Assembly (NCBI GenBank): GCA_019058365.1 | Contig: JAHPZE010000015.1 | Span: 33,873-97,872 of the forward strand | Reading direction: 5' to 3' | DNA length: 64,000 nucleotides | DNA from: Promethearchaeota archaeon | GTDB lineage: Archaea; Asgardarchaeota; Lokiarchaeia; Sigyniarchaeales; SOKP01 | Shown here: positions 37,102 through 49,900 of the stretch, one piece after another | Position numbering within the stretch: the stretch's first letter is position 1 | Layout of the letters: every line of letters starts with the position of its first letter | Translations under genes and position numbers: made by a program | Notes under the pieces: model-generated | Database searches by the model: none | Told to the model about the DNA's origin: nothing | What the model saw: only the letters and a program-made list of their open reading frames with translations

Positions 37102-37956
37102 CTAGAGATAATCAAATAAAAATTCTAAACTTGGCAAATCAAAAGGTTTTAAAATATAACCATCTGCCATTGTTTCTTCCATTTTTTTCTCTATTTTAGG
37201 AAGTGGTACAGCGGTTAAGTAGAAAACGGGCGTTTCTTTTAGACTCATATGAGATTTTATTTCCTTACAAATATCATATCCACTAACATCTGGTAAAATA
37301 ATATCTAACAATATTAATTTTGGTCTTGTCACATATAATTCTTCAATTCCTTTAGATCCTGTAAGAACTCCTTTAAAGGAATACCCTTTACTTTCAAAAT
37401 AATTCTTTAATAAAAGGATCGTAGATAAATCATCTTCTATAAGCAAAATATCATATTGGGAAGGTTTTTCTTTTCTCTCTTCTAATTTAGTTACAAATTT
37501 ACTCTCCAATTGCTGTGTTTCATTTAATACATTATTTATAATTGATTTAATATCATCGTTTATCTCATTTTTATGTTTTTCAAGTAATAATTGAGAAAAT
37601 CCTTTAATAGTAGTCAATTTTCCTTTTACTTCATGAACTAAGTCTGAATCATTGGCAATTCCTAGGTGTGTAAGTATTTTTCCACCAAATTTTGTTTTTT
37701 CATTTATAAAATAATTAACACTTTCTCTTATTAATTTAGAAAATGAAGAAAATTTATGTGTATCCATAAATTCTTCCCATTTTTTTTCAGTTTCAGTTGA
37801 TACATAAACGGAAATTCTTTTTTTATCAGCATAATAATCTTTTTCACCTTCTTTCCATCTTAGGAATCCCTTAGTGGTTTTTCCCTGCCAAATTGCTTGC
37901 TTTCCCGTCTCTTGCTCAAATTGTACCATTTCCTTAGTTTTTTGATCACTATTCAA
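37102..37956 (-). CDS. response regulator with RHH-like DNA-binding domain, His-containing DHp and C-terminal REC
   Basis: KKRISVYVS.ETEKKW...FSSFSKLIRESV (RHH pattern); LVHEVKGKLTTIKGFSQLL (H-box); ILLIEDD, LLDIILPD, LTA and KPF. Confidence 0.85.
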   Translation of the reverse strand: MNSDQKTKEMVQFEQETGKQAIWQGKTTKGFLRWKEGEKDYYADKKRISVYVSTETEKKWEEFMDTHKFSSFSKLIRESVNYFINEKTKFGGKILTHLGIANDSDLVHEVKGKLTTIKGFSQLLLEKHKNEINDDIKSIINNVLNETQQLESKFVTKLEERKEKPSQYDILLIEDDLSTILLLKNYFESKGYSFKGVLTGSKGIEELYVTRPKLILLDIILPDVSGYDICKEIKSHMSLKETPVFYLTAVPLPKIEKKMEETMADGYILKPFDLPSLEFLFDYL

Positions 37957-38158
37957 TATGAACTTCCACCTTTGATTAAAATATTATAAATTTTTTTTTA
38001 TTCTATTCTTTAATTGATTTTTACATTTACTAATATTTAAAATTGATTAAGTGAATCTTAGGAATAATAAATATCAAATCTCTGATTGTAAGAAACTTCA
38101 ATATATTTTTTAATATGAGATATATATCTTGTATAGCTATTTAAAACAATAAACTTAA

Positions 38159-39652
38159 TCATAAGTCAAAACGATTGACTAAACCTCGCTTCAAGAACAT
38201 TTCTTTTAATTCTGAAAGAACGTCTCCTCTAGGTGAAGTTGATCTAATATTGCCACTTATTGAGATTTTTGGAGGTGGGGGTGGAGGTTTAAGCGAATCT
38301 AAGCTAATTTCTTCCTGTTTCATTGGTGGTGCATTCGGTGGAGTAGAGGATATCTTTGGTAATTGAGTTTTTGATTTTAGAAAAGGTTTAGTTTTTTCTA
38401 ATTTCTCAGTTGTGAGTTTTCCATCTTTAACTAGTTCTTTTTCTTGTAATTTTAAAGATGGATGTGTTGGCAGTGGCTTTGGAGGTCCTGAGCCTTTTTT
38501 ATATTTTTTTTTCTTTTGACTCTCATTAAATTTAGCCTTTTTCTTACCTTTTTTAACACTTTCACTAGATTTTGAGATAGGTGAGATAGAATCATTTTTT
38601 ACTTTTTCAAAAGGAACTGAAAAAAGAGATTGTGATAGATCTGATGGATTCAATCTAAGTATAGCCCTTTTAATTTCTGAAAGTTCAGATACGAATTTAT
38701 CCATTAGTTTCAGATTGAGATCTAAAATCTTCTGAAATTTTTCGTCAATATCAGGTATCACAATCTCTTTACCTTTCTCCTCTTTTTCCTTTGAAAAAAT
38801 ATTTTTAATACTCTTAACTATCTCTGGTTTATTAGAATAATAATTATAAATACTTGTGGGAATAATCTCAAAATTCCAAGGATTTTCAGATTTTTTAAAA
38901 ATCTCCGAGATTTTATCTGCAAGGTATTCAAGTTTAATTTGAAAATCTGGATCTTCTCTGATATCAAAATCTGCCTTATTCAATAAAATTACAATAAAAG
39001 GATTTTCCTTTAAGAATTCGAGAATATCTGTTATATCTTTTAGATATTTTACCGCATTTAAATATCTAACATCATCTTGGGAATCAATAACAAAAATTAT
39101 AATATCCACTTGGATGAAAAATTGTTCTGGAGAGGCAAGATATTCATCTATATGATCTTTTTGACCACCTAGATCCCAGAGAATCAAATCTAATTTATCA
39201 GATTGATATTCTTCTATGTTTGCCCCAATTGTAGGTTCTAAATTAGCTATGTCATTATAATTATAATCTTTAATTAATCTATTTATTAAAGATGTTTTCC
39301 CAGCGAAATCTAAACCTGCAACGACAATTTTCAATTTAGGTTTTTTTAAATATAATTTTCTTTTACTCCATGCATTTGAAATTAAGGTTGAAGCAATTAG
39401 AGCATTCTTTAAAGTAGTTCTATTAATAGAATATTTTTCAATCAGATTTTCAAATCCATAATTTTCTAATTTAGCGAGATCGCGTAAATTTGTGATATCA
39501 ATTTTTCTAAATTTCTCAATCTCTTCTTTTTTTATTCCCTTTAATTTACTTATTTCTAAACCTAATACATCTTTCAGGGAGGTAGGATAATAATCTAAAT
39601 CTAAAAATCGATCAGAGAAATATTTAATAACCCTTTTTGCTGACTCTGACAT
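38159..39652 (-). CDS. Arf-like GTPase with N-terminal HhH-like domain and Lys/Pro-rich C-terminal tail
   Basis: GLDFAGKTS, EPTIG, WDLGGQ and NKAD; N-terminal ISKLKGI; tail KPPPPPPK...RGDVLSELKEMF. Confidence 0.88.
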   Translation of the reverse strand: MSESAKRVIKYFSDRFLDLDYYPTSLKDVLGLEISKLKGIKKEEIEKFRKIDITNLRDLAKLENYGFENLIEKYSINRTTLKNALIASTLISNAWSKRKLYLKKPKLKIVVAGLDFAGKTSLINRLIKDYNYNDIANLEPTIGANIEEYQSDKLDLILWDLGGQKDHIDEYLASPEQFFIQVDIIIFVIDSQDDVRYLNAVKYLKDITDILEFLKENPFIVILLNKADFDIREDPDFQIKLEYLADKISEIFKKSENPWNFEIIPTSIYNYYSNKPEIVKSIKNIFSKEKEEKGKEIVIPDIDEKFQKILDLNLKLMDKFVSELSEIKRAILRLNPSDLSQSLFSVPFEKVKNDSISPISKSSESVKKGKKKAKFNESQKKKKYKKGSGPPKPLPTHPSLKLQEKELVKDGKLTTEKLEKTKPFLKSKTQLPKISSTPPNAPPMKQEEISLDSLKPPPPPPKISISGNIRSTSPRGDVLSELKEMFLKRGLVNRFDL

Positions 39653-39883
39653 TACATATCATTCTCTTTGTTTTTATAGAAAAATTTACTAAACTTTTCA
39701 CTTTTAGTGTTATTTTTATTTTCAATAGTAAAATAAAAAAATTAATAAATAAATTTTGTTACTATTTTAGCGAAAATGGATCTAATTAGTAAAATTTTAG
39801 AGAATTAATTATAATTATTTAAAATATATATATCAAAAAATAGTTTATAATAGACCGAATTAAAAAAAGGAGCGAACTTATAA

Positions 39884-40567
39884 ATGGTTGAAAGGAAACA
39901 GGTTGAGGATACTGTAGAGAATATAATTTCAGATACTTATAATAGCGTGCAATCAATTTTAGAAAAAAATCCTTTCATAATAATGATTGGGAAATATGAT
40001 CATACGTTAGGACCTAGAACTATATACACATCCGTTAACATTGAATTGGAACAACAATTTATTAGAAATCTTTTAAGAGATGCTTTAAATACTAAAAATA
40101 AATTTGTAATTTTAGATTTCAATTATTTTTATTCCCAAATCTATAAGATTGAAATTGAGGACAATAATGCTCGAGGTAAAAAACAATTATACTCTATCAT
40201 TTTACTTCGTGATATTGAATATCCATTAATTCCTGTTATACATTTTAGAAAAATTGAAATGATGTTTCGTAAAATTGGTGAAGATAGTATTTTATCAGAT
40301 GACAAAAAAGTATTTGAAGTTTTTTTTGAAGAATTAAGCGAGATATATATAAAAAAAAATGAAATTCTCCCATTAGAAAAATTCAATTTGCAAATTCGTA
40401 GTGGACTAAATACAATTCAAGGTTTTTGTGAATTGATATTAGAAGATAAAAAGGAGAAGAAGAATCTATCTGATGAGAATATATTAAATTTTATGGAAAT
40501 GATTCTAGATTCTTGTAAAGATATAATTATATCACTTGAAAAATATTTAAAAAATTCCTTAAAATAA
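39884..40567 (+). CDS. uDENN/longin-like domain fused to a degenerate HisKA (pseudo-DHp)
   Basis: IMIGKYDHTLGPRTIY and ARG..QLYSIILL; C-terminal FNLQIRSGLNTIQGFCELILE. Confidence 0.65.
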   Translation: MVERKQVEDTVENIISDTYNSVQSILEKNPFIIMIGKYDHTLGPRTIYTSVNIELEQQFIRNLLRDALNTKNKFVILDFNYFYSQIYKIEIEDNNARGKKQLYSIILLRDIEYPLIPVIHFRKIEMMFRKIGEDSILSDDKKVFEVFFEELSEIYIKKNEILPLEKFNLQIRSGLNTIQGFCELILEDKKEKKNLSDENILNFMEMILDSCKDIIISLEKYLKNSLK

Positions 40568-40602
40568 ATAGTTTAATTTAACTAGAGATTCAAGTATTAA
40601 AT

Positions 40603-41481
40603 TTGATTAAAAAAAAGATTGTCTTTACCGGCCCACCAGATGTAGGAAAAACAACGATCAAAAAGGTATTTTTTGATCATACTAGTCCAGTTTCACTTTT
40701 AAAGAGCCCCTTACAACCTTCAAGGGGCATTAACTCAAGAGTGTATTCAACATTCAATTCTCATTTAGGAATTTTTGATTTAGCAGGCCAAGAGAACAAG
40801 AATTGGTTTTCTAATAAAAGTAAAGATGTATTTACTGAAAGTAATATCATAATTTGTGTTTTTGACATCAGAAATACATTGGAATCAATAATTCAATTCT
40901 TAATGGGGGTATACAAATTGAAAAAAGAACTACATCTACATTCGTGTGAGATCGTTGCATTTTTACACAAAATAGATCTGAGAAGTAATCCCTATGTTAA
41001 TCAAAAATTAAAAATCATTCAAGATTTTATAACAATTCAACATCCACATGGGAAGAATTTTAAAATATATAAGACATCACTTACAATTAATTATTTTTAT
41101 AACACTTATTATATAATTTCGGAAATTTTAGACTTAATTTACCAAAGAAATCTCAGTTCTGTTGATGATCAAGAATTTCAAAAATTGAAAAAAGAATTAT
41201 CTATTATCTTTAATTTGAAAATCAATCTTAGATATAATATAACGGATCTAGTTCATAAATTTAATTTCAATTCTGAAGATTTAAAAAATCATATAAAAAG
41301 ACTAGAAAAATTAGGATTTATTAAGATTTTTGATAAATACCAATTCTTTAAATTAACTGATAGCGCAAATTATTTTAAAGTTGGATTAGAAAAGGAATTT
41401 ACTATTATAGATGAAACACATTTCAATAAAAGAATTGAATTATTTCATATTTTCCTTTGTTTTAAGGAAAAAGAGGTATGA
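40603..41481 (+). CDS. Rag/Gtr-like GTPase with C-terminal winged-helix domain
   Basis: GPPDVGKTT, QPSRG, FDLAGQE and HKID; ITDLVHKF...LKNHIKRLEKLGFI...FKLT. Confidence 0.85.
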   Translation: MIKKKIVFTGPPDVGKTTIKKVFFDHTSPVSLLKSPLQPSRGINSRVYSTFNSHLGIFDLAGQENKNWFSNKSKDVFTESNIIICVFDIRNTLESIIQFLMGVYKLKKELHLHSCEIVAFLHKIDLRSNPYVNQKLKIIQDFITIQHPHGKNFKIYKTSLTINYFYNTYYIISEILDLIYQRNLSSVDDQEFQKLKKELSIIFNLKINLRYNITDLVHKFNFNSEDLKNHIKRLEKLGFIKIFDKYQFFKLTDSANYFKVGLEKEFTIIDETHFNKRIELFHIFLCFKEKEV

Positions 41482-41564
41482 ATTATTAGCTAACCACAGG
41501 ATTAATAATCTTCGAAAATATTGAATATAGATTTTAATAAAGAAATGTTTGTAATGATTATGAG

Positions 41565-44500
41565 ATGAGGCAAGAATTAAATTATAAGGTCCATGACGTA
41601 AGGGAAAGATTTAAAGATATATTTGATTATTCTTTAGATTTAATTTATGCTCATGATCTAAGGGGAAATTTTCTCGATGCTAATGATCTCGCTTTAGCTA
41701 CTCTTGGTTTTACGAGAGAAGAAATTCCAAATATTTCATTAAGTAAATTAATAGATAACAATCAATTAGAAAAAGTATTTAATGTTTTAAAAGAATTAAA
41801 AGAATTTGGGAGACAAAAAGAACCAAGTGAATATAAATTAAAGGATAGATATGGAAATACGATATATCTTGAAACGTATGGAATTCCATTAAAAACAAAT
41901 GGTCAAATTTTTGGTATATTAGGTATAGCGAAAGATATTACTACTAAAAAAAAAACAGAATTACAATTAAAACAAGCTAAACAAGATTTAGAACAAATAA
42001 ATCTTGAATTGGAGAATAAAGTAAGAAAAAAGACTCAAAAATTAGAAAAATCTGTACAAAATTTAAAATTTTCTGAGGAAAAATATCGTAATTTGATTGA
42101 AACGTCAACGATGGGCTTTTTAGAAATTAATTTAGAGAGCGGACAAGTAGAGTATATAAATCCTAAATTTTTGGAGATTATTGGTTATGAAAGACAAGAG
42201 CTAGAAAATGAAACATTTTTTTATAAGATTCTTTATCCAGAGGATTTTAGAGCCCTTACAAAAAGTCATGACAATCGAAAAACTGAATTTAGAATTATGT
42301 CTAAAGATAAAGAAATCAAATGGTTATCAGGAACAAGAACATTTCAATATGATTCAATAGGTCAACCGAAAAAATTAGAATTATGGGTCCAAGAAATAAC
42401 TGAAAATAAAATAATGGAGCAAAAATTACGTGATTCAGAACTAAATTTTAGAACCATTACTGAACAATCATTAATCGGAATACAGATCTTACAAGAGAAT
42501 AGGACGAAATATATTAATCAGCAGTGGTCGGAAATTAGCGGTTATTCTGTTGAAGAAATATTGAAATGGAATTTGGAGGAGCATCTTAAATTTATTCATC
42601 CTGATGATAGGGAATTAGTAAGACAACAATTAACAAAAAAGCAAAAAGGAGATCATGACGTTTTAAATCATTATCAAGTAAAATGTATTAAAAAATCTGG
42701 TGAAACTATTTGGGTAGAGATCTTTGCTACATCGATTACATACAATGGAAAATTTGCGGATCTAGCCATGATAATTGATATTACCGAAGCTAAACTTACA
42801 CAGCAAAAATTGAAAGAATCTGAAGAAAAGTTTAAGGTAATTGCTGAACAATCACCGATGGAATTAATTATTATTCAGGATAATAAAGTTAAATATGCTA
42901 ATCCACAATCAGCTAATATAACTGGCATTCCTGTTAGTGAAATATCTAAATGGAATATTAAAAGAATTTTTGAAAATATTCATCCTGATGACTTAAATCT
43001 ATTTAGAGAAAATGTTAGAAAGACTCTTAATAATTCTCCTGATGCTTTGAAACATCTTGAATATCGTGTAATTAATGATACAGGAGAAATATTATGGGTT
43101 GCTAGCCATGGCATGCAAATCCATTTTGAGGGAAAACCAGCACATGTAATTGCATCTATAGATATTACTAACCGTAAAACTCTCGAACACCAATTAAAAG
43201 AGTCTGAAGAAAAATATCGTCTTATCATAGAGTCAATATCAGACCCACTCCATGTGGTTAATACTGATTTAAAGATTATTTATCTAAATCCTGCATTTAC
43301 TAATTGGTTAAAAGCCTTAGGACTAAATCATGAAGTTATTGGAAAAAATCCTACTGAAGCTTTTCCATTCATCGAAAAGAATGTGATTAAGGAATATCAA
43401 GAAATTTTTAAATCAAAAAAAGAACTTTTTCTTGAAAGCTATAGCGTATTGAATAATAAACGGATATTCACAGAAACCAAGAAAATTCCCGTTCTAAACG
43501 AGGGGAAAGTTATTCAGATAATCACAATTGTAAGGGACGTGTCGGAACGTAAAGAAATCGATTTAAAATTAAGAGAATCAGAAGAAAAATATAGAAGTAT
43601 TCTCGAAAACATTAATGAAGGATATTTTGAGGTTGATCTTAAAGGTAATTTCACGTTTTTTAATAATGCATTGTGTTTAAATACAGGTTATTCAAGAGAA
43701 GAATTATTAAATAAGAGTTATAGCAAATTATTTGATGATAAAAGAGCAAAAGAAGTTTATCGTATGTACCATGAATTATACCAAAGAGGAAAAGGTTCTA
43801 TCTTATTTGATTATCAAGTAATAAGAAAAGATGGAAGTAAGTTCTATCACGAATCCTCTACTTATTTGAGAAATGACTCTAATGGAAACATTATTGGTTT
43901 TAAAGGTTTTATTAGGGATATTAGTGAAAAAAAGAAAATAGATAATTTAAAAGAGAGGTTTAGTCAAGAATTAGAAAAAGAAGTGGAATTAAAAACCAAA
44001 GAATTAAAAGTTGCCTTTAATCAACAAAGATTATATTTAGACAAAATCTTAAAAGCTTCCCACTTTCAAACAGAATTTATGGCCAGAATTTCTCATGAAT
44101 TAAGAACCCCCTTAAATGCTATAATTGGATTTACTGATTTACTTCTTGAGGGAGTTTATGGTCAATTAAATGCAGAACAATTAGAATTTGTTAAAGATAT
44201 TGAAGAATCATCAAAAGATTTACTGGATATGATATCAAATATCCTAGATATATCTAAAATTGAATCCGGTCAAGTCATCCTAAAAATTGAAAAAACAGAA
44301 ATATATGATATTATACAACAGGTGATTTCAGCTTTAAATCCATTATATAATGAAAAAGATTTAAAATTTAAATTAAAAGGTTTAAATAAAAATCAAGTAA
44401 TAATTATTGACCGAATTAAATTCAAGCAAATCATTTTTAATCTATTAAGTAATGCTATAAAATTTACTGAAAAAGGAACTATCTTAGTTGAATTTCTAGA

Positions 44501-44792
44501 TAAAAAGGATAATTGGGAGTTTAATGTAAAAGATACGGGTGTAGGGATAGCAAAGAAAGATTTTAATATAATATTTAAAGAATTTAAAAGAGTGAGAACA
44601 ACTTATGTTAATTCGAAACCAGGTTCAGGTTTAGGATTAGCCTTAACCAAGAGATTAGTTAATCTCCATGGAGGAAATATTAGTTTTATTAGTGAGTTAG
44701 GAAAGGGATCGACGTTTACTTTTTTCATTCCTAAGAATCCAGAAACTCTTAGTAACACTATCAATGTAAGTGAATTCTTAGATCTTTTATGA
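41565..44792 (+). CDS. multi-PAS sensor histidine kinase
   Basis: About 6 PAS domains; ISHELRTPL, NLLSNAIKF, DTGVG and GSGLGL. Confidence 0.95.
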   Translation: MRQELNYKVHDVRERFKDIFDYSLDLIYAHDLRGNFLDANDLALATLGFTREEIPNISLSKLIDNNQLEKVFNVLKELKEFGRQKEPSEYKLKDRYGNTIYLETYGIPLKTNGQIFGILGIAKDITTKKKTELQLKQAKQDLEQINLELENKVRKKTQKLEKSVQNLKFSEEKYRNLIETSTMGFLEINLESGQVEYINPKFLEIIGYERQELENETFFYKILYPEDFRALTKSHDNRKTEFRIMSKDKEIKWLSGTRTFQYDSIGQPKKLELWVQEITENKIMEQKLRDSELNFRTITEQSLIGIQILQENRTKYINQQWSEISGYSVEEILKWNLEEHLKFIHPDDRELVRQQLTKKQKGDHDVLNHYQVKCIKKSGETIWVEIFATSITYNGKFADLAMIIDITEAKLTQQKLKESEEKFKVIAEQSPMELIIIQDNKVKYANPQSANITGIPVSEISKWNIKRIFENIHPDDLNLFRENVRKTLNNSPDALKHLEYRVINDTGEILWVASHGMQIHFEGKPAHVIASIDITNRKTLEHQLKESEEKYRLIIESISDPLHVVNTDLKIIYLNPAFTNWLKALGLNHEVIGKNPTEAFPFIEKNVIKEYQEIFKSKKELFLESYSVLNNKRIFTETKKIPVLNEGKVIQIITIVRDVSERKEIDLKLRESEEKYRSILENINEGYFEVDLKGNFTFFNNALCLNTGYSREELLNKSYSKLFDDKRAKEVYRMYHELYQRGKGSILFDYQVIRKDGSKFYHESSTYLRNDSNGNIIGFKGFIRDISEKKKIDNLKERFSQELEKEVELKTKELKVAFNQQRLYLDKILKASHFQTEFMARISHELRTPLNAIIGFTDLLLEGVYGQLNAEQLEFVKDIEESSKDLLDMISNILDISKIESGQVILKIEKTEIYDIIQQVISALNPLYNEKDLKFKLKGLNKNQVIIIDRIKFKQIIFNLLSNAIKFTEKGTILVEFLDKKDNWEFNVKDTGVGIAKKDFNIIFKEFKRVRTTYVNSKPGSGLGLALTKRLVNLHGGNISFISELGKGSTFTFFIPKNPETLSNTINVSEFLDLL
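42078..43225. repeat. inverted repeat copy B (three-PAS block)
   Basis: Reverse complement of 28604-29751. Confidence 0.92.
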
Positions 44793-44826
44793 TATAATTT
44801 AAAAATTAAATAGGAAAAACAAAAGT

Positions 44827-46962
44827 ATGCTTTTGGATGAAAAGAGACCATTGGAAAAAAAAATTGATTATTTTAAAGAAGTTGAAAATATAAAAAAAAA
44901 ATGGACACACTTAGAGATTTTATCCTCAAATATTTCTTCTCGTTTTCTGGGGGATATTAGTATTAACGATGCTATAAATGCAACACTTCGTGATATGGGA
45001 ATTTTGAGTGGTGCTAGTCGTGTATTTTTGTGTATTTTTAGAGAGGATAAAATTAATTTAAATCATACCTATGAGTGGTGCGCAGAAGGGATAAATAAGT
45101 TGTTCCAATACTTTCAAAATTCATGGATCATTAATTTTCCATGGTGGAATGAGCAGCTTAAAAAGGGAAATATTATAAATATTAGTGATATTAATGATTT
45201 GCCAAAGGAAGCACAAAATACTAAAACATTGTTAAAAGTTAATCAAATTAAGTCTTTATTAATATTTCCATTGTTTAATAAATCAGAATTATCCGGATTT
45301 ATAGGATATGCTAATGATATAATAGAAAAAGAGTGGAAGGAAAATGATTTATCACCTTTACGTTTATCTTCGCAGATAATTGGAAACGCTTTAGAAAAAC
45401 ATAAAATAGAAATTCTTTTAAAAAATTCTGAAGAAAAATACCGTCTTATTATTGAAAATATTAACGATCTTATAGTTATAATTGACAGGAATTTCAAATT
45501 TGAATATATAAATCAAGAAACTGTTTTCAGATTATTAGGGTATCGAAAGGATGAGATTATTGGAAAATCTGCTTTGGATTTTATTCATCCAGATGATGTA
45601 GAACAAGCTATTTATACATTTAAAAAAGGATTCCAACTAGGAGAATCTATTATAGAATTACGCTTTAAACATAAGGATGAGAATTGGCTTTTGTTTGAAT
45701 GTAGTGGTCATACTTTTATTGATAGAGATGGAGAATTAAAAGGAATAATCATTTCAAGAGATATTACAGAGCGAAAATCTGCTGAAGAAAGGTATAAAGC
45801 TCTATTTGATAATTCTCCAAATGCGATACTCATCGTTGATTTTAATGGATTTATTGTAGATGCCAATCCTACAATAGAAGTTTTATTTGGTCTAACTAGG
45901 AATAATATAGTTGGAAAATCCATTGAGGAATATAATGAAATTTTTCATTCAGAAGTTAAAAAATATTTTAAACGAATTTTCAAAGCCTCGTTCTTAAAAG
46001 ATTTTCCTGGACCTATTGAGGTTGAAGTTAAGAATTCACATGGGGAAAATTTATGGGTTAAAACTCAAGCGTCGATTATAAAACAGGATAATAAAACTCT
46101 AATTCAATTAATTTTTGAAGATATCACTGAGAAAAAGAAGATGGAAATTTTGGAAAATAAATTTAAAGATGAACTGGAAAATGAAGTTCAAATGAGAACT
46201 AAAGAGTTAAATGATGCGCTCACACAGCAAAAATTATTTGTAGATCAAATCGTAAAATCATCTCAATTTAAAACAGAATTTATGGCTACTATGTCACATG
46301 AGCTGAGAACTCCACTAAATGCTATCATTGGATTTGCAGATTTACTTCTGGAAAATGTATATGGTCAATTAACTGAAGATCAAAGAGAATTCATATCTGA
46401 TATTAAAAGTTCCGCGGAACATCAATTTGATATGATTAAGCATATTTTAGATATATCCAAAATTGAATCTGGACAAATTTCATTAAATATTCAAAAATTT
46501 TCACTAAATAATATGGTTGAACAAATAAAATCCAGCTTAAAACCATTGATTAATAAGAAAGAAATTAAGGTTAAAATAAAGGGCTTAGAAGAAGAAAAAT
46601 TTATTTTTGCAGATCCAATTAGGTTTAAAGAAATTTTATTAAACCTTTTAAGTAACGCTATTAAATTTACAATTGAAGGAAAAATAACTTTAACTGTTAA
46701 AGAAGAGTATAATTATTGGCTTTTTAAAATAAATGATACAGGAATTGGAATTGCACGTAAGGATTTCCCTTTAATATTTAAGGAATTCAAAAGAGTAGAT
46801 TCTACTTATGTTCGATCTGTTCCCGGAACGGGACTTGGTTTGTCATTAACAAAAAGATTAATAGAGTTACATGGAGGAGATATTAGTTTTACAAGTATAT
46901 TGGGAGCGGGATCTACTTTTACCTATTCAATCTCAAAAAAATTAGAAGAAAAAAAGTGGTGA
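44827..46962 (+). CDS. GAF-PAS-PAS sensor histidine kinase
   Basis: GAF (GASRVFL, YEWCAEG, SLLIFPL); MSHELRTPL, NLLSNAIKF and GTGLGL. Confidence 0.95.
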   Translation: MLLDEKRPLEKKIDYFKEVENIKKKWTHLEILSSNISSRFLGDISINDAINATLRDMGILSGASRVFLCIFREDKINLNHTYEWCAEGINKLFQYFQNSWIINFPWWNEQLKKGNIINISDINDLPKEAQNTKTLLKVNQIKSLLIFPLFNKSELSGFIGYANDIIEKEWKENDLSPLRLSSQIIGNALEKHKIEILLKNSEEKYRLIIENINDLIVIIDRNFKFEYINQETVFRLLGYRKDEIIGKSALDFIHPDDVEQAIYTFKKGFQLGESIIELRFKHKDENWLLFECSGHTFIDRDGELKGIIISRDITERKSAEERYKALFDNSPNAILIVDFNGFIVDANPTIEVLFGLTRNNIVGKSIEEYNEIFHSEVKKYFKRIFKASFLKDFPGPIEVEVKNSHGENLWVKTQASIIKQDNKTLIQLIFEDITEKKKMEILENKFKDELENEVQMRTKELNDALTQQKLFVDQIVKSSQFKTEFMATMSHELRTPLNAIIGFADLLLENVYGQLTEDQREFISDIKSSAEHQFDMIKHILDISKIESGQISLNIQKFSLNNMVEQIKSSLKPLINKKEIKVKIKGLEEEKFIFADPIRFKEILLNLLSNAIKFTIEGKITLTVKEEYNYWLFKINDTGIGIARKDFPLIFKEFKRVDSTYVRSVPGTGLGLSLTKRLIELHGGDISFTSILGAGSTFTYSISKKLEEKKW

Positions 46963-46972
46963 TTAAATTCTT

Positions 46973-48286
46973 ATGGTTAAGGGTATAGTTTTTTTCAGTT
47001 GGGATATAAGGATGGGTGCTACACTTGAGTTGCAGTACCCTTTAGATTTGAATTTGACTGATGATTTAATAAATAAAATATACATGACTCATTCATATGA
47101 AGAGGAATATAAGAAGGATGAGATAATTGAAATTTCCTATAATCATCAACTTATTTTGAGTTTTTGTGATAAAGCTAAAGTTAATGAAGTCGGCTATGAA
47201 ATTGTTATTATTATTCTTGATGAAAAGGAAAAGATCGATTTATATAAATTAAAATCTCAATTTATTGAATTTTCTAGAGCGCTTTTACAAAAGGCAAAGA
47301 GTGAGAGAAAAAAATATTTTATTGAGAAAATTAATATTTTTTTAGGGGAATCTTCATCAAAGAAGTTATTAGTAATTGGCAGAGCGGGTACAGGAAAAAC
47401 AACTGTTAAAAAGATTGTGTTTGAAGGAAATGATCCAAATGATTTATTATCTAATCCATTAGAACCTACACGTGGAATATTACCATCTGTTTATTCGTGG
47501 TTAGATTTAGAATTAGGATTATTCGACTCTTCTGGGCAAGAATTAAGTGATCTATTGGAAAGTAAAGTGGATAATGACCAAATTTTAGCTTTTGAAAACA
47601 CCGATATTATTATATACCTATTTGATTATCCAACGTGGGTTTCCAACTCCCAACTAATTATGGATGATATTCAAAAGGTTTTAGCTATTATAAAAGAAAA
47701 ATCCTATACTGCTAAGCTAATTGTTTTCTTTCATAAAATAGATTTGATAAAAATAGAGTCTAGAAGGGAGATTTTAGAGGAAATAACAAATACAATAAAG
47801 AAGAAATCTGATGTCCCTATCTATTATACAAGCATTTATCCAAATTTAATTTACAGCCTATACAACGCATTTTATGAATTATTAAGTAGTTTTTCGAAAG
47901 AAACCGTTTATTTAAAAAATATTTTAGATAATAGTATTAGAGACTTTTCTAAAACTATGTTTTTTATTACTAACTTAAATGATAGTATAATAGTACAATC
48001 GATGTCCAAAGATTTCAATACCGTGATGATTAATCATTCGCACAAGCTTATAACACAGTTAAATAAGACATTTGAAAATATGGTTAACAACGATAGAATT
48101 GAGCATTTAATACTTTCAAGTTTTAACTTTAATATAATTATGAATAGTCTGAATTATCAAAAATTTGGTCTTAAAAATTTAATTTGCCTTTCTGAGACTC
48201 TTAGTGCAAATAAATTAATTTGGACAATTGGGCAAATTAGATTACACCTAAAAAATGTATATTATTTGAATAAAAATGTGGTTTAA
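46973..48286 (+). CDS. uDENN/longin - Rag-like GTPase - roadblock-like fusion
   Basis: N-terminal KGIVFFSWDIRMGATLELQYP; GRAGTGKTT, EPTRG, FDSSGQE, HKID and TSIY; C-terminal MFFITN...IIVQS. Confidence 0.85.
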   Translation: MVKGIVFFSWDIRMGATLELQYPLDLNLTDDLINKIYMTHSYEEEYKKDEIIEISYNHQLILSFCDKAKVNEVGYEIVIIILDEKEKIDLYKLKSQFIEFSRALLQKAKSERKKYFIEKINIFLGESSSKKLLVIGRAGTGKTTVKKIVFEGNDPNDLLSNPLEPTRGILPSVYSWLDLELGLFDSSGQELSDLLESKVDNDQILAFENTDIIIYLFDYPTWVSNSQLIMDDIQKVLAIIKEKSYTAKLIVFFHKIDLIKIESRREILEEITNTIKKKSDVPIYYTSIYPNLIYSLYNAFYELLSSFSKETVYLKNILDNSIRDFSKTMFFITNLNDSIIVQSMSKDFNTVMINHSHKLITQLNKTFENMVNNDRIEHLILSSFNFNIIMNSLNYQKFGLKNLICLSETLSANKLIWTIGQIRLHLKNVYYLNKNVV

Positions 48287-48291
48287 TTAAA

Positions 48292-49815
48292 GTGAGTGAA
48301 AAAATAATTTTTGTTGGACCTCCGGGTGCTGGAAAAACTACACTCCGTAAAGTTTTTTTTGAAGGTGAAAGTTCAACCAAGTTATTAGAGTATACATTAG
48401 AACCTACTTACGGTGAAGAATCATTAATAATGAAATTGCCTGATTTAAATAAAGACGTCGGTATATTTGATCTCGCAGGACAAGAAAATGAACGATGGCT
48501 TGATACAGATGAAAAAAGAATTTTCATTGGGACTAAACTGATTTTAGTGGTAATAGATACTATATCTGGTCATGATGAAATATTTCAATTTATAAGAAAA
48601 ATAATTGATTTAAGGAATACCATAACACCATCAACTTACATTTTTGTATTATTACATAAAATAGATTTAGTGAGTGAAAAAAAAGTTAGGGAAATTAAAA
48701 CATTAATTAAAAATAAGTTCTCAAATGAAACATCAATAAATTTTTTCTTTACTAGTTTAAAGAGGGAATATTTTACTAAAACATTTTCATATTTCATCGA
48801 CATTATGAAAGTATGTCTTCAAGAAATTATACCTGATGAAGGTTTATTATTAAATATGGTTGAAGAATCGCTTAAGATTATACATCAAATTGATAAAGAA
48901 ATGGTTATAACTAAAGATATTCTCTATGAAAAATTAAATCGTCCAGAAAAATTAGTGTCTTATTTAATCGAGGGTTTAGTTAATAAAGGACATATTGAGA
49001 TAAAGCATATAGAGAATAAAGATCTTCTTAGTTTAACAAATAAAGGTAAGGTATACTATCAAAAAATTTTAAAAGATTTCTCTTATAGTCGTTTAGAAGA
49101 ACCGGAAAGAGAAATAGAAATTGAAGAACAGATTCCTTCAATTATAGGAACTATAATAGCGGATAAAGATGGAAGATCTCTATTAAAATTTGAATTATTT
49201 GATAACGCTCTTAAAAGTTTTATTTCTCACAATATCCCAAATGATGATACGGTTATTCCATTTGATATTGAATTAATCCCAATGTTTATCAGCGCAATGG
49301 AAAAATTCTCTTTAGAATTAAACATTCAAAACTTAACAGGTTTTGGATTAAAAGGAAGTAATTTAAAAATGCATGTTTTTGGATATGAGGGTTATACTGT
49401 AACTATTTTTATGAACCCTAATATCAATTTAAAAGCTATAGAGAATAAAATTAATAATTTTTTTAAGAATTTATTTGAAGAAAATAGAGATAAATTTGAA
49501 GTGGGAATTAACACAGGCAAAATTAACGATCTCTTTCCTTTAATGGAAACAGGAAGAAATTGGTTAATAGAATTAAATAAGTCATATCAAAAAATGATTA
49601 TTAACTCAGAGATTATGGATAAGGAAAATGCAAAAGTTCTTTATAATAAAATCGATGAACTTTATAATGAAATTAATCAAGAATTTTCTATAACTCTTGA
49701 AAAAGTTAAAAAATTAAAGATTAATATAATGCAATCAATAATTGAGAATGATTTTGAGGAATTAAAAAAATTAGCTAAGTCTGCTCAAGATTTAAAAACT
49801 AGATTTGCTTTATGA
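48292..49815 (+). CDS. Rag-like GTPase - wHTH - longin/roadblock-like - coiled-coil fusion
   Basis: GPPGAGKTT, EPTYG, FDLAGQE and HKID; LIEGLVNKGHI...LSLTNKG (wHTH); IIGTIIADKDGRSL...LIPMFISAMEKFS. Confidence 0.85.
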   Translation: MSEKIIFVGPPGAGKTTLRKVFFEGESSTKLLEYTLEPTYGEESLIMKLPDLNKDVGIFDLAGQENERWLDTDEKRIFIGTKLILVVIDTISGHDEIFQFIRKIIDLRNTITPSTYIFVLLHKIDLVSEKKVREIKTLIKNKFSNETSINFFFTSLKREYFTKTFSYFIDIMKVCLQEIIPDEGLLLNMVEESLKIIHQIDKEMVITKDILYEKLNRPEKLVSYLIEGLVNKGHIEIKHIENKDLLSLTNKGKVYYQKILKDFSYSRLEEPEREIEIEEQIPSIIGTIIADKDGRSLLKFELFDNALKSFISHNIPNDDTVIPFDIELIPMFISAMEKFSLELNIQNLTGFGLKGSNLKMHVFGYEGYTVTIFMNPNINLKAIENKINNFFKNLFEENRDKFEVGINTGKINDLFPLMETGRNWLIELNKSYQKMIINSEIMDKENAKVLYNKIDELYNEINQEFSITLEKVKKLKINIMQSIIENDFEELKKLAKSAQDLKTRFAL

Positions 49816-49900
49816 TGTAGATTAACGATTTTGTTTAATAGTATGATATTTCTAAAAATTAAATATAAAAAAATAGGAAATGAAGATGTATATATAGAAA

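What the first reader, a model, noticed from the sequence alone, without database searches (positions are those of the whole stretch)
39884..40567. uDENN/longin domain fused to a His-less pseudo-DHp: possible adaptor or kinase inhibitor
Seen: the N-terminal GKYDHTLGPRTIY resembles the uDENN 'FD...GP' signature. The C-terminal FNLQIRSGLNTIQGFCELILED...FMEMILDSCKDII aligns with the H-box of the neighbouring kinases (ISHELRTPLNAIIGFTDLLLEG...FVKDIEESSKDLL), but has Leu at the phospho-His position and no ATPase domain. Inference: it could heterodimerise with kinases or bind receivers and so tether them to a GTPase, like pseudo-kinase adaptors such as DivL. It is the first gene of the mixed operon.
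Basis: partly seen in the sequence, partly recalled or inferred. Interest (0 to 1): 0.8.

Follow-up and report, generated by a model that had tools for sequence, protein, structure and literature searches.

The report
Folliculin-type longin with histidine-less kinase hairpin
A small protein of a Loki-type Asgard archaeon joins the kind of domain that switches off Rag GTPases in eukaryotes to a histidine-kinase hairpin that has lost its phosphorylated histidine, and its gene always travels with sensor kinases and Rag-like GTPases; this gives a testable but untested link between the two signalling systems, and fusions of this general kind are already in print.

Summary
ORF 39884-40567 (227 aa) has an NPRL2/folliculin-type longin domain (aa 29-161), with the invariant GKYDHxLGPR "GP" motif and an invariant Arg (R97) in the beta4-beta5 loop. 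A two-helix hairpin follows (aa 162-226). It matches the HisKA H-box in register, with Leu169 where the phospho-His should be, and there is no ATPase domain.

Evidence for the hairpin: hhalign against local kinases scores 32.2, versus 10.9 +/- 2.3 for 200 column shuffles. It superposes on the HK853 DHp at 1.4 A. Divergent relatives still carry His at that site.

Of 166 family rows, 155 have L/M/I at the site and 4 have His. Helix 1 just after that site is almost invariant on all faces, whereas helix 2 is not, which suggests a docking surface rather than simple dimerisation.

In 14 of 14 informative loci from two families of one Lokiarchaeial order, the gene directly precedes a sensor kinase or a RagA-like GTPase followed by kinases. 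An Arf/Rag-like GTPase co-occurs with it.

My reading is a dimeric GAP-type regulator of the neighbouring Rag-like GTPases, controlled through the dead hairpin. No binding or activity has been shown. Longin fusions to two-component domains (Liu 2020) and GP/Arg Asgard longins (2025) are published, and this scan has already met the family in at least 15 genomes.

The parts
39884..40567 (+). ORF of 227 aa: longin plus histidine-less DHp hairpin (P0001)
   Evidence: There are 267 homologs, all from Promethearchaeota/Lokiarchaeia and all named 'hypothetical'.
39819..39874 (+). AT-rich TATA-like stretch (39819-39835) and SD-like GGAG (39870-39873) ahead of the ATG
   Evidence: Read directly from the sequence. 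The genome is AT-rich, so this is weak evidence.
39890..39967 (+). Poorly conserved N-terminal helix (aa 3-28)
   Evidence: AF2 secondary structure. Mean majority fraction 0.42.
39968..40366 (+). Longin domain of the NPRL2/FLCN type (aa 29-161)
   Evidence: Pfam Folliculin, sub-threshold, in 22/22 members. VIA-align Z 13.0 to NPRL2 and 11.3 to FLCN.
39989..40018 (+). GP motif GKYDHTLGPR (aa 36-45) in the beta1-beta2 loop and the start of beta2
   Evidence: G43 is found in 163 and P44 in 162 of 163 rows with a residue. The motif is defined in PMC12290439.
40160..40186 (+). DNNARGKKQ (aa 93-101) in the beta4-beta5 loop, with candidate arginine finger R97 (codon 40172-40174)
   Evidence: R97 is found in 159 of 164 rows. 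Equivalence to FLCN R164 or NPRL2 R78 was not tested at residue level.
40367..40561 (+). Pseudo-DHp helical hairpin (aa 162-226)
   Evidence: (HK853, rmsd 1.4 A).
40379..40435 (+). H-box-like stretch KFNLQIRSGLNTIQGFCEL; Leu169 (codon 40388-40390) occupies the phospho-His position
   Evidence: Residues 172-182 are at least 96% conserved at every position except 175.
40603..41481 (+). RagA-like GTPase with a C-terminal winged helix, 35 nt downstream; candidate substrate
   Evidence: PDB 8yl2 (Lokiarchaeal RagA-like) E 6.4e-9 and human RagA E 1.8e-3. 34% identical to the G domain of 48292. Directly downstream of the longin gene in 9 of the 14 informative loci (window included).
41565..46962 (+). 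Two PAS (and GAF) sensor histidine kinases with intact HisKA and HATPase_c domains
   Evidence: Kinase orthologs follow the longin gene in every informative locus.
46973..49815 (+). Pair of Rag-family GTPases (longin-G and G-wH-roadblock types)
   Evidence: Pfam Gtr1_RagA 4.6e-23 and 1.9e-14. Syntenic in most loci.
49901..53313 (+). Membrane kinase, single-domain receiver (51951-52319) and a second Rag-like GTPase-wH (52435-53313) on the same strand
38159..39652 (-). Divergently transcribed Arf/Rag-like GTPase with a long tail
   Evidence: Pfam Arf 2.2e-22 and Gtr1_RagA 1.6e-20. 35 of the 37 own-family genomes that hold its ortholog also hold the longin-hairpin gene.
37102..37956 (-). Receiver protein with an ATPase-less DHp-like segment that keeps its His
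   Evidence: Pfam Response_reg 1.8e-16 and HisKA 0.0019. It is the only other hit of the hairpin-family HMM in the genome (E 0.021).

Best explanation
The protein is a two-module adaptor.

Module 1 is a longin domain of the class that forms the catalytic subunit of the eukaryotic Rag/Arf GAP complexes (NPRL2, FLCN, SMCR8). It carries their GP motif and an invariant loop arginine.

Module 2 is a histidine-kinase DHp hairpin that has lost the phospho-acceptor His (Leu169), the adjacent acidic residue (Gln170) and the whole ATPase domain. It keeps the rest of the H-box helix almost invariant.

Proposed mechanism (inferred, not shown): the hairpin pairs two chains into a four-helix bundle. This brings two longin domains together into the dimeric platform that longin GAPs need. 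That platform acts on one or more of the co-encoded Rag-family GTPases; the first candidate is the RagA-like GTPase-wH at 40603, then the Arf/Rag-like one at 38159. R97 would serve as the finger.

The conserved face of helix 1 is the surface that real kinases use to dock their receiver and their own ATPase domain. Here it would dock a two-component partner, most likely a phosphorylated receiver from the same island, less likely a kinase. The state of the phosphorelay would then set GAP activity or location.

Shown: the architecture, loss of the His, the conservation pattern and the synteny. Inferred: dimerisation, GAP activity, the identity of the GTPase and the identity of the docking partner.
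For: Architecture.

GAP-type longin:
- GP motif and R97 are near-invariant in about 165 unique relatives.
- NPRL2 and FLCN are among the top structural matches.
- PMC12290439 reports GP motif plus Arg finger as specific to GAP longins and present in Asgard longins.

Substrate plausibility:
- All four neighbouring GTPases carry DxxGQ in switch II (read).
- The next gene is RagA-like.

Docking surface: residues 172-182 are at least 96% conserved on all helix faces except position 175. Helix 2 averages 0.58 and the loop 0.48.

H-box positions H+8/+11/+12/+15 are T/G/F/L. The co-operonic kinases have A or S/G/F/L or I there (read). That these are receiver-specificity positions is from my own knowledge of Skerker/Laub work.

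Synteny:
- A longin -> (Rag-wH) -> kinase order is seen in 14/14 informative loci across two families.
- Receivers lie in or next to the cluster.
- Co-occurrence with the Arf/Rag-like GTPase is 35/37.

Relatives that keep the His sit beside receivers and kinases (L079: GTPase, longin-DHp(His), REC; L081: between kinases and RECs). The L079 protein scores HisKA at E 1.8e-5.
Against: - No binding, dimerisation or GTPase assay exists.
- Pfam Folliculin stays under its cut-off (21.6 vs 23.3 bits), and the PDB sequence searches find no FLCN or NPRL2.
- The longin fold match does not stand well clear of non-GAP longins (Z 13.0 vs 10-11 for Fuzzy, VAMP7, Sec22b).
- I could not superpose R97 on the known fingers residue by residue.
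- Eukaryotic longin GAPs are heterodimers with a second, different longin subunit and DENN or other domains, none of which is seen here.
- PAS-fused relatives (P0133/P0134) have a hairpin with almost no H-box left, so in at least that branch the hairpin may be only structural.
- An earlier check in this scan priced the GAP claim for a relative at 12/100.
Confidence: 0.42

Rival explanations
1. The hairpin is only a dimerisation or coiled-coil scaffold. It was recruited from a kinase gene to make a longin homodimer and has no contact with two-component proteins. The kinase neighbours act in parallel or through the receivers alone.
For: DHp domains are dimerisation modules by nature. Lokiarchaeal longins crystallise as dimers (8yqg). 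PAS-longin relatives keep the hairpin but lose nearly all H-box residues. His, Glu and Pro of the H-box are gone.
Against: A plain scaffold should conserve core positions on both helices. Instead three turns of helix 1 are invariant on all faces, while helix 2 and the loop drift. The gene is glued to kinase genes in 14/14 loci.
Confidence: 0.25
2. The protein is a kinase inhibitor or modulator. The pseudo-DHp forms a mixed four-helix bundle with the DHp of a co-operonic kinase (RetS-GacS style) or binds its ATPase domain. It thereby blocks autophosphorylation, and the longin reports GTPase state to the kinase. Information would flow from GTPase to kinase.
For: A kinase gene always lies next to it or one gene away. 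The H-box helix is 26-37% identical to the neighbours' DHp and in register.
Against: The neighbours' DHp are not clearly closer to the hairpin than kinases elsewhere in the genome. The loop at the base of the bundle differs in length and sequence from the kinases'; that this region sets dimer specificity is from my own knowledge. No test was possible.
Confidence: 0.15
3. The longin is not a GAP. It is a GEF-type or passive platform, as in TRAPP, Mon1-Ccz1, Ragulator or MglB, that binds a Rag-like GTPase without an arginine finger. R97 would then be structural.
For: Most longin and roadblock domains are platforms or GEFs (PMC10933270). The fold scores do not separate GAP from non-GAP longins well. 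Pfam Folliculin is sub-threshold.
Against: The GP motif is reported as absent from non-GAP longins. D93-x-x-A96-R97-G98-x-x-Q101 is near-invariant. The paralog without the Arg (L081) sits in a kinase/receiver cluster with no GTPase, while the paralog with it (L080) sits in a GTPase operon.
Confidence: 0.18

Closest known systems
Asgard NPRL2-like longin proteins fused to two-component domains (Liu et al., bioRxiv 10.1101/2020.10.19.343400, Fig. 5c; later in Nature 2021)
   Same: An NPRL2-like longin joined to a domain of the two-component system in a Loki-type Asgard archaeon. The authors already surmise that growth control runs through two-component systems with 'eukaryotic' regulators.
   Different: The text gives no detail on this architecture. 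It does not mention a DHp without ATPase domain and without His, its His-bearing paralogs, or the fixed kinase/Rag-GTPase island.
Asgard FLCN/SMCR8-type longins with GP motif and arginine finger (PMC12290439, Traffic 2025)
   Same: GP motif before beta2 and a conserved loop Arg. GAP activity towards Asgard Rag or Arf-related GTPases is proposed as a possibility.
   Different: That paper stresses Heimdallarchaeia and does not mention kinases or a DHp tail ('kinase' occurs 0 times). Its sequence supplement is not held, so I could not check whether this family is among its 15 proteins.
Eukaryotic longin GAP subunits NPRL2 (GATOR1, RagA/B), FLCN (with FNIP2, RagC/D) and SMCR8 (with C9orf72, Arf)
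   Same: Longin fold (Z 11-13), GP motif, a loop Arg, and genes for Rag-family GTPases alongside.
   Different: No DENN or NPRL2 C-terminal domain and no second, distinct longin partner is seen. The sequence match is sub-threshold. Dimerisation would come from a kinase hairpin instead.
DivL of Caulobacter (PMC4211667)
   Same: A histidine-kinase scaffold that has lost the phospho-His and is repurposed to read the phosphorylation state of a single-domain receiver through its DHp (abstract).
   Different: DivL keeps PAS and ATPase-like domains, has Tyr rather than Leu at the site, and talks to another kinase (CckA), not to a GTPase regulator.
Actinobacterial conservons / G protein systems (CvnA-D; PMC13343842, PMC13621833) and MglA-MglB-RomR of Myxococcus
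   Same: [quoted passage not shown]
   Different: In those systems the parts are separate proteins, the GAP is MglB-type roadblock without an Arg finger, the GTPases are not Rag-type, and there is no kinase-derived hairpin on the GAP.

Membership tests
FLCN/NPRL2/SMCR8-type GAP longin | Longin fold (five-stranded sheet with flanking helices) | tested here: met
   AF2 topology. Z 13.0 to NPRL2, 11.3 to FLCN and 8.6 to the C9orf72:SMCR8:WDR41-ARF1 entry 7mge (chain C) over aa 28-161.
FLCN/NPRL2/SMCR8-type GAP longin | GP motif at the end of the beta1-beta2 loop or start of beta2 | tested here: met
   G43-P44 lie at the start of beta2 and are invariant in the family. The criterion is from PMC12290439.
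FLCN/NPRL2/SMCR8-type GAP longin | Catalytic arginine finger at the position of FLCN R164 / NPRL2 R78 / SMCR8 R147 | tested here: inconclusive
   R97 is near-invariant and lies in the beta4-beta5 loop. No residue-level superposition or alignment to the solved chains could be obtained.
FLCN/NPRL2/SMCR8-type GAP longin | Sequence-profile membership (Pfam PF11704 at or above its curated cut-off) | tested here: not met
   21.6 bits against a cut-off of 23.3. All 22/22 relatives hit, but the best E is 3.8e-5. I therefore call it 'folliculin/NPRL2-like', not a Pfam Folliculin member.
FLCN/NPRL2/SMCR8-type GAP longin | Second longin subunit and DENN or other C-terminal domain forming a heterodimeric complex | tested here: not met
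   The protein ends in a helical hairpin. No DENN domain is found.
FLCN/NPRL2/SMCR8-type GAP longin | GAP activity on a Rag or Arf GTPase | not testable with these tools
   Needs a biochemical assay.
HisKA (DHp) domain of histidine kinases | Antiparallel two-helix hairpin of about 30 + 30 residues | tested here: met
   Helices 162-190 and 197-226. Superposes on HK853 253-315 with Z 8.4 and rmsd 1.4 A.
HisKA (DHp) domain of histidine kinases | H-box sequence similarity in register | tested here: met
   hhalign P 5.5e-6, with 0/200 shuffles reaching the score. BLASTP E 3e-4. Pfam HisKA is the top hit of the tail but sub-threshold (14.6 bits vs 26.9).
HisKA (DHp) domain of histidine kinases | Phospho-acceptor histidine | tested here: not met
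   Leu169 here. Across 166 rows the site is L 122, M 28, I 5 and H 4.
HisKA (DHp) domain of histidine kinases | Partner ATPase (HATPase_c) domain in the same chain | tested here: not met
   None is found in the 227 aa.
HisKA (DHp) domain of histidine kinases | Homodimeric four-helix bundle | not testable with these tools
   Only single-chain prediction is offered.
Asgard NPRL2-like longin fused to two-component domains (Liu et al.) | NPRL2-like longin plus a two-component-system domain in one Asgard protein | tested here: met
   Homologs are named Promethearchaeota/Lokiarchaeia.
DivL-type pseudo-histidine kinase | His-less DHp that binds a phosphorylated receiver | not testable with these tools
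   Loss of His is shown. Receiver binding is not testable here. DivL's ATPase-like domain is absent from this protein.

The most novel reading that the evidence does not exclude
The island is a direct wire from phosphorelay to Rag switching. A phosphorylated single-domain receiver docks on the dead H-box helix, and may even be dephosphorylated there, since the H+4 hydroxyl residue Ser173 is kept while His and Glu are lost. This docking turns on or relocates an arginine-finger longin GAP for a RagA-like GTPase. That would be a prokaryotic forerunner of GATOR1/folliculin nutrient signalling, with bacterial-type sensor kinases in the role of the eukaryotic amino-acid sensors. His-bearing paralogs would be the phosphotransfer-competent ancestors.
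Probability: 0.15. Interest if true: 0.8.

Novelty: new variant of a known kind. Interest (0 to 1): 0.5.

Why it matters
Matching Asgard small GTPases to their regulators is hard because these genes are usually not in operons (PMC10933270). Here a folliculin/NPRL2-like longin, a RagA-like GTPase and their probable inputs sit in one conserved island.

That gives a defined pair for testing whether longin GAP activity on Rag GTPases predates eukaryotes. It also gives a concrete physical candidate, the dead DHp helix, for how two-component signalling feeds into it. If the test fails, the protein is still a clean example of a kinase dimerisation hairpin reused as a scaffold.

Tried and rejected
- RNA-polymerase alpha-CTD (helix-hairpin-helix) reading of aa 161-201. 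There are weak profile hits to 1z3e/3ihq (E about 0.85) and Pfam RNA_pol_A_CTD in 2/22 members. I rejected it because the model has one continuous 29-residue helix there (pLDDT 82-90) and the HisKA evidence is far stronger.
- PDB sequence searches with the protein, its longin part and two family profiles found no FLCN, NPRL2 or SMCR8, and only sub-significant kinase hits.
- The longin domains of the neighbours (46973, 49901) show no detectable sequence relation to this one. This protein is therefore not a truncated copy of the 7TM-longin kinase.
- The hairpin is not clearly closest to the co-operonic kinases, so an origin by local duplication is not shown.
I took context from the genome search and the fetch from genomes instead.
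- The search for related loci with the His-bearing P0131 gave only a spurious bacterial hit.
- The supplement of PMC12290439 is not held.
I dropped the step, so the equivalence of R97 to NPRL2 R78 or FLCN R164 rests on loop position and recollection only.
- ESM Atlas gave only leads (own cluster; HisKA 0.87; a cluster with NPR2 in 19% of members at 0.85).
Full report
WHAT IS THERE

The window is AT-rich (GC 0.23-0.36). It lies in a 4.74-Mb, 54-contig genome. The closest homologs of the protein come from records named Promethearchaeota, Promethearchaeia or Lokiarchaeia, so this is a Loki-type Asgard archaeon.

ORF 39884-40567 (+, 227 aa) follows a 231-nt AT-rich divergent intergenic region. An SD-like GGAG lies about 10 nt before its ATG.

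N-TERMINAL DOMAIN

- Pfam Folliculin (PF11704) is the only family hit: E 2e-4, 21.6 bits, just under the 23.3-bit cut-off, covering aa 78-131. All 22 of 22 aligned relatives hit it, none convincingly above threshold (best E 3.8e-5).
- An AF2 model built from 22 relatives (pLDDT 77, pTM 0.61) gives a helix at 3-28. A longin topology follows: beta 31-39, beta 43-49, alpha 57-68, beta 74-78, beta 82-92, beta 100-110, alpha 118-130 and alpha 141-157.
- Foldseek and VIA-align put GATOR1 NPRL2 first (Z 13.0, rmsd 2.9 A, 132 residues). Next come a Lokiarchaeal roadblock-longin protein (8yqg, Z 12.1), yeast Npr2 in SEAC (Z 11.9) and FLCN (Z 11.3, with the highest identity, 16%).
- Non-GAP longins (Fuzzy, VAMP7, Sec22b, sigma-adaptins) follow closely at Z 10-11. 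The fold alone therefore says 'longin', not 'GAP'.
- The class assignment comes from two sequence features. G43-P44 at the start of beta2 is invariant. The stretch D93-x-x-A96-R97-G98-x-x-Q101 in the beta4-beta5 loop is near-invariant in about 165 unique relatives.
- A 2025 paper defines this GP motif, next to the arginine finger, as specific to the GAP longins FLCN, NPRL2, SMCR8 and C9orf72 and absent from other longins. It reports both features in a class of Asgard longins (PMC12290439).
- I could not show residue by residue that R97 matches FLCN R164 or NPRL2 R78. No PDB sequence search reached those chains, and the fold tools return ranges only. From recollection, the FLCN finger sits in a D..ARG context and the NPRL2 finger in the same loop. 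That is a lead, not a test.

C-TERMINAL DOMAIN

The model ends in two long helices, 162-190 and 197-226 (pLDDT 82-90). The evidence that this is a HisKA-derived hairpin:

- It superposes on the DHp of HK853 (4jav_B, 253-315) with Z 8.4, rmsd 1.4 A and 21% identity over 63 residues. Helix 1 is gapless in that alignment, so L169 falls on residue 260. To my knowledge H260 is the phospho-His of HK853.
- A helical hairpin is a common shape, so sequence evidence matters more. A profile of the family's last 72 residues was aligned by hhalign to a profile of 17 HisKA segments from this window and related loci. It gave probability 85.6%, P 5.5e-6 and score 32.2, with N168-L169-Q170-I171-R172 opposite S-H-E-L-R.
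- In 200 column shuffles the score averaged 10.9 +/- 2.3 (max 19.3). The reversed profile gave 11.9.
- BLASTP against the kinase at 49901 aligns the same register at E 3e-4.
- Pfam HisKA is the top hit of the isolated tail (E 0.034) and is hit by 10/22 relatives.
- In a BLAST of the tail against all ORFs of the genome, about ten of the top 18 hits are kinase H-boxes in the same register.
- Divergent relatives still carry a His at exactly that position: P0127 SHHVR, P0131 SHKIR, P0140 EHKAR and the fragment P0139 NHQIR. One such protein (L079) reaches HisKA at E 1.8e-5 and 25.1 bits.

A weak resemblance to the RNA polymerase alpha-CTD is rejected on the model's single long helix. No HATPase_c domain is present.

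IS THE LOSS OF HIS CONSERVED?

Yes. Among 166 rows with a residue in that column, 122 have Leu, 28 Met, 5 Ile and 4 His. The adjacent acidic residue is Gln (138 rows), and the Pro of HELRTP is Gly (146 rows).

The rest of the H-box helix is more conserved than in real kinases. In 142 full-length relatives of at least 50% identity, every position from R172 to C182 except 175 is at least 96% conserved, which is three full turns on all faces. Helix 2 averages 0.58 and the loop 0.48.

A mere dimerisation module would conserve core positions on both helices. All-faces conservation just below the former His site points to a docking surface. In real kinases that surface is where the receiver domain and the kinase's own ATPase domain bind (established knowledge of HK853-RR468 and EnvZ-OmpR).

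CONTEXT

Downstream on the same strand, with gaps of 5-166 nt (5-85 nt between the first six genes), lie:
- a RagA-like GTPase with a winged helix at 40603 (best PDB hits are the Lokiarchaeal RagA-like 8yl2, E 6.4e-9, and human RagA, E 1.8e-3);
- two PAS/GAF sensor kinases with intact HisKA and HATPase_c;
- two Rag-family GTPases with built-in longin/roadblock parts;
- a membrane kinase;
- a single-domain receiver at 51951-52319;
- a second Rag-like GTPase-wH.

Upstream and divergent lie an Arf/Rag-like GTPase with a long tail, and a receiver protein whose ATPase-less DHp keeps its His.

I fetched about 24 related loci from other genomes. In the 14 with enough flank, the longin-hairpin gene is directly followed either by a kinase or by the Rag-wH gene and then kinases. 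One locus has a kinase on the other side as well. The Arf/Rag-like gene and the Rag pair are usually within a few kb. This holds in a second taxonomic family of the same order (L070: REC, longin-hairpin, kinase, Arf/Rag-like, all on one strand).

DISTRIBUTION

- The family is confined to one order. Matches at E <= 1e-6 occur in 48/134 genomes of the window's own family, 11/14 of a second and 1/4 of a third. About half of the second-family matches are weak, longin-only paralogs. In the rest of the phylum sample there is only one weak match.
- Only 24 cluster representatives among 1.84 billion proteins reach E <= 1e-3.
- Within the window's own genus only 12/53 genomes have it. Of the 37 own-family genomes with an ortholog of the Arf/Rag-like GTPase, 35 also have the longin-hairpin gene. 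The island therefore behaves as an accessory unit gained or lost whole. These genomes are kin, so this is a pattern, not a statistic.

PARALOGS THAT INFORM THE MECHANISM

- Genome G356 holds two copies. One is His-less with the ARG loop and sits in an operon of four GTPase genes (L080). The other has His (SHHVR), has no Arg (IEGET), and sits among kinases and receivers with no GTPase nearby (L081).
- In G258 a copy with both His and Arg lies between a Rag-like GTPase gene and a receiver gene on one strand (L079).
- A 390-aa form (P0133/P0134, L041) carries a PAS domain in front and a hairpin with almost no H-box left.

These cases suggest an ancestral longin-DHp that exchanged phosphate with receivers. 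The present family would have kept the docking and lost the chemistry. The sample is very small.

MECHANISM

My best reading (confidence about 0.4 for the whole chain) has three steps. The hairpin dimerises the protein. The paired longins act as a GAP-type regulator of a co-encoded Rag-family GTPase, with R97 as finger. The dead H-box helix docks a two-component partner so that the phosphorelay sets the GAP's activity or place.

A receiver is the more likely partner than a kinase, for two reasons. The conserved surface is the receiver-docking one, and its H+8/+11/+12/+15 residues (T/G/F/L) nearly equal those of the island's kinases (A or S/G/F/L or I; read).

All four neighbouring GTPases have DxxGQ in switch II, so a trans arginine finger is chemically sensible.

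Rivals are scaffold only, kinase inhibitor by mixed DHp bundle, and non-GAP platform. They are set out in their own section.

COMPARISON WITH WHAT IS KNOWN

- Liu et al. [quoted passage not shown] They surmise that growth control runs through such systems.
- The 2025 Traffic paper proposes, as a possibility, GAP activity for GP/Arg Asgard longins.
- I did not find four points in print: this particular architecture (DHp without His and without ATPase), the all-faces conservation of its helix 1, the His-bearing paralogs, and the fixed island with a RagA-like GTPase. My searches cover open-access text only.
- Functional analogues are DivL (PMC4211667) for the repurposed His-less DHp, and conservons and MglA/MglB/RomR for kinase or receiver plus roadblock-GAP plus small GTPase.

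EARLIER NOTES OF THIS SCAN

The same family has been flagged and followed up on other DNA in at least 15 genomes, with the same verdicts: observation confirmed, reading partly supported. One later check priced the GAP claim at 12/100.

My own tests agree on the architecture and synteny. They add the shuffle control, the column census, the helix-face conservation, the His/Arg paralog split and the co-occurrence count.

VERDICT

This is a real, well-conserved and interpretable protein. It is a new variant within a published kind, of moderate interest because it offers a defined, testable regulator-GTPase-input set. No function has been shown.

Noticed in passing
window 40427-40429 and 40514-40516 (C182, C211): Two cysteines, one on each hairpin helix, are conserved in 152 of about 160 relatives, and C211 in 100% of the close set. 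C182 sits at H+13, a small core-facing position in real DHp domains. A dimer would bring four Cys together, so a redox or metal site is conceivable.
   Followed up: partly
L080:1255-1884(-) and L081:1902-2528(+) (genome G356): One genome holds two paralogs. One is His-less with the Arg loop and sits in a GTPase operon. The other has His (SHHVR) but no Arg and sits among kinases and receivers.
   Followed up: partly
L079:720-1403(-): A relative with both the H-box His and the Arg loop lies between a Rag-like GTPase gene and a single-domain receiver gene on one strand. Its HisKA score is 25.1 bits (cut-off 26.9).
   Followed up: partly
L041:683-1849(-); proteins P0133, P0134: These 390-aa forms carry an N-terminal PAS domain and a degenerate H-box-like helix before the longin, and a C-terminal hairpin that has lost nearly all H-box residues. 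They lie next to a Rag-roadblock-type GTPase gene.
   Followed up: partly
window 37102-37956 (-): This receiver protein has an ATPase-less DHp-like segment that keeps its His (VHEVKGKLTTIKGF). It is the only other ORF in the genome hit by the hairpin-family HMM (E 0.021), so it is a possible bundle partner.
   Followed up: partly
window 51951-53889: A single-domain receiver (51951-52319), a second Rag-like GTPase-wH paralog (52435-53313) and a Rab/Ras-like GTPase on the minus strand (53335-53889, Pfam Ras 7.8e-42) extend the island.
   Followed up: partly
whole island, about window 37102-53313: The island is patchy even within one genus: the longin-hairpin gene is found in 12 of 53 genomes, and the same genomes hold the Arf/Rag-like GTPase. 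It behaves as an accessory unit.
   Followed up: partly
G000:C16:127785-127979 (-), outside the window: A second sub-threshold Pfam Folliculin match (19.7 bits) lies in a 492-aa ORF elsewhere in the genome.
   Followed up: no
L022, L023, L026, L082 (second family of the order): Short (160-200 aa) longin-only paralogs carry SHYHxKLGPQ and ARG motifs but no hairpin.
   Followed up: no
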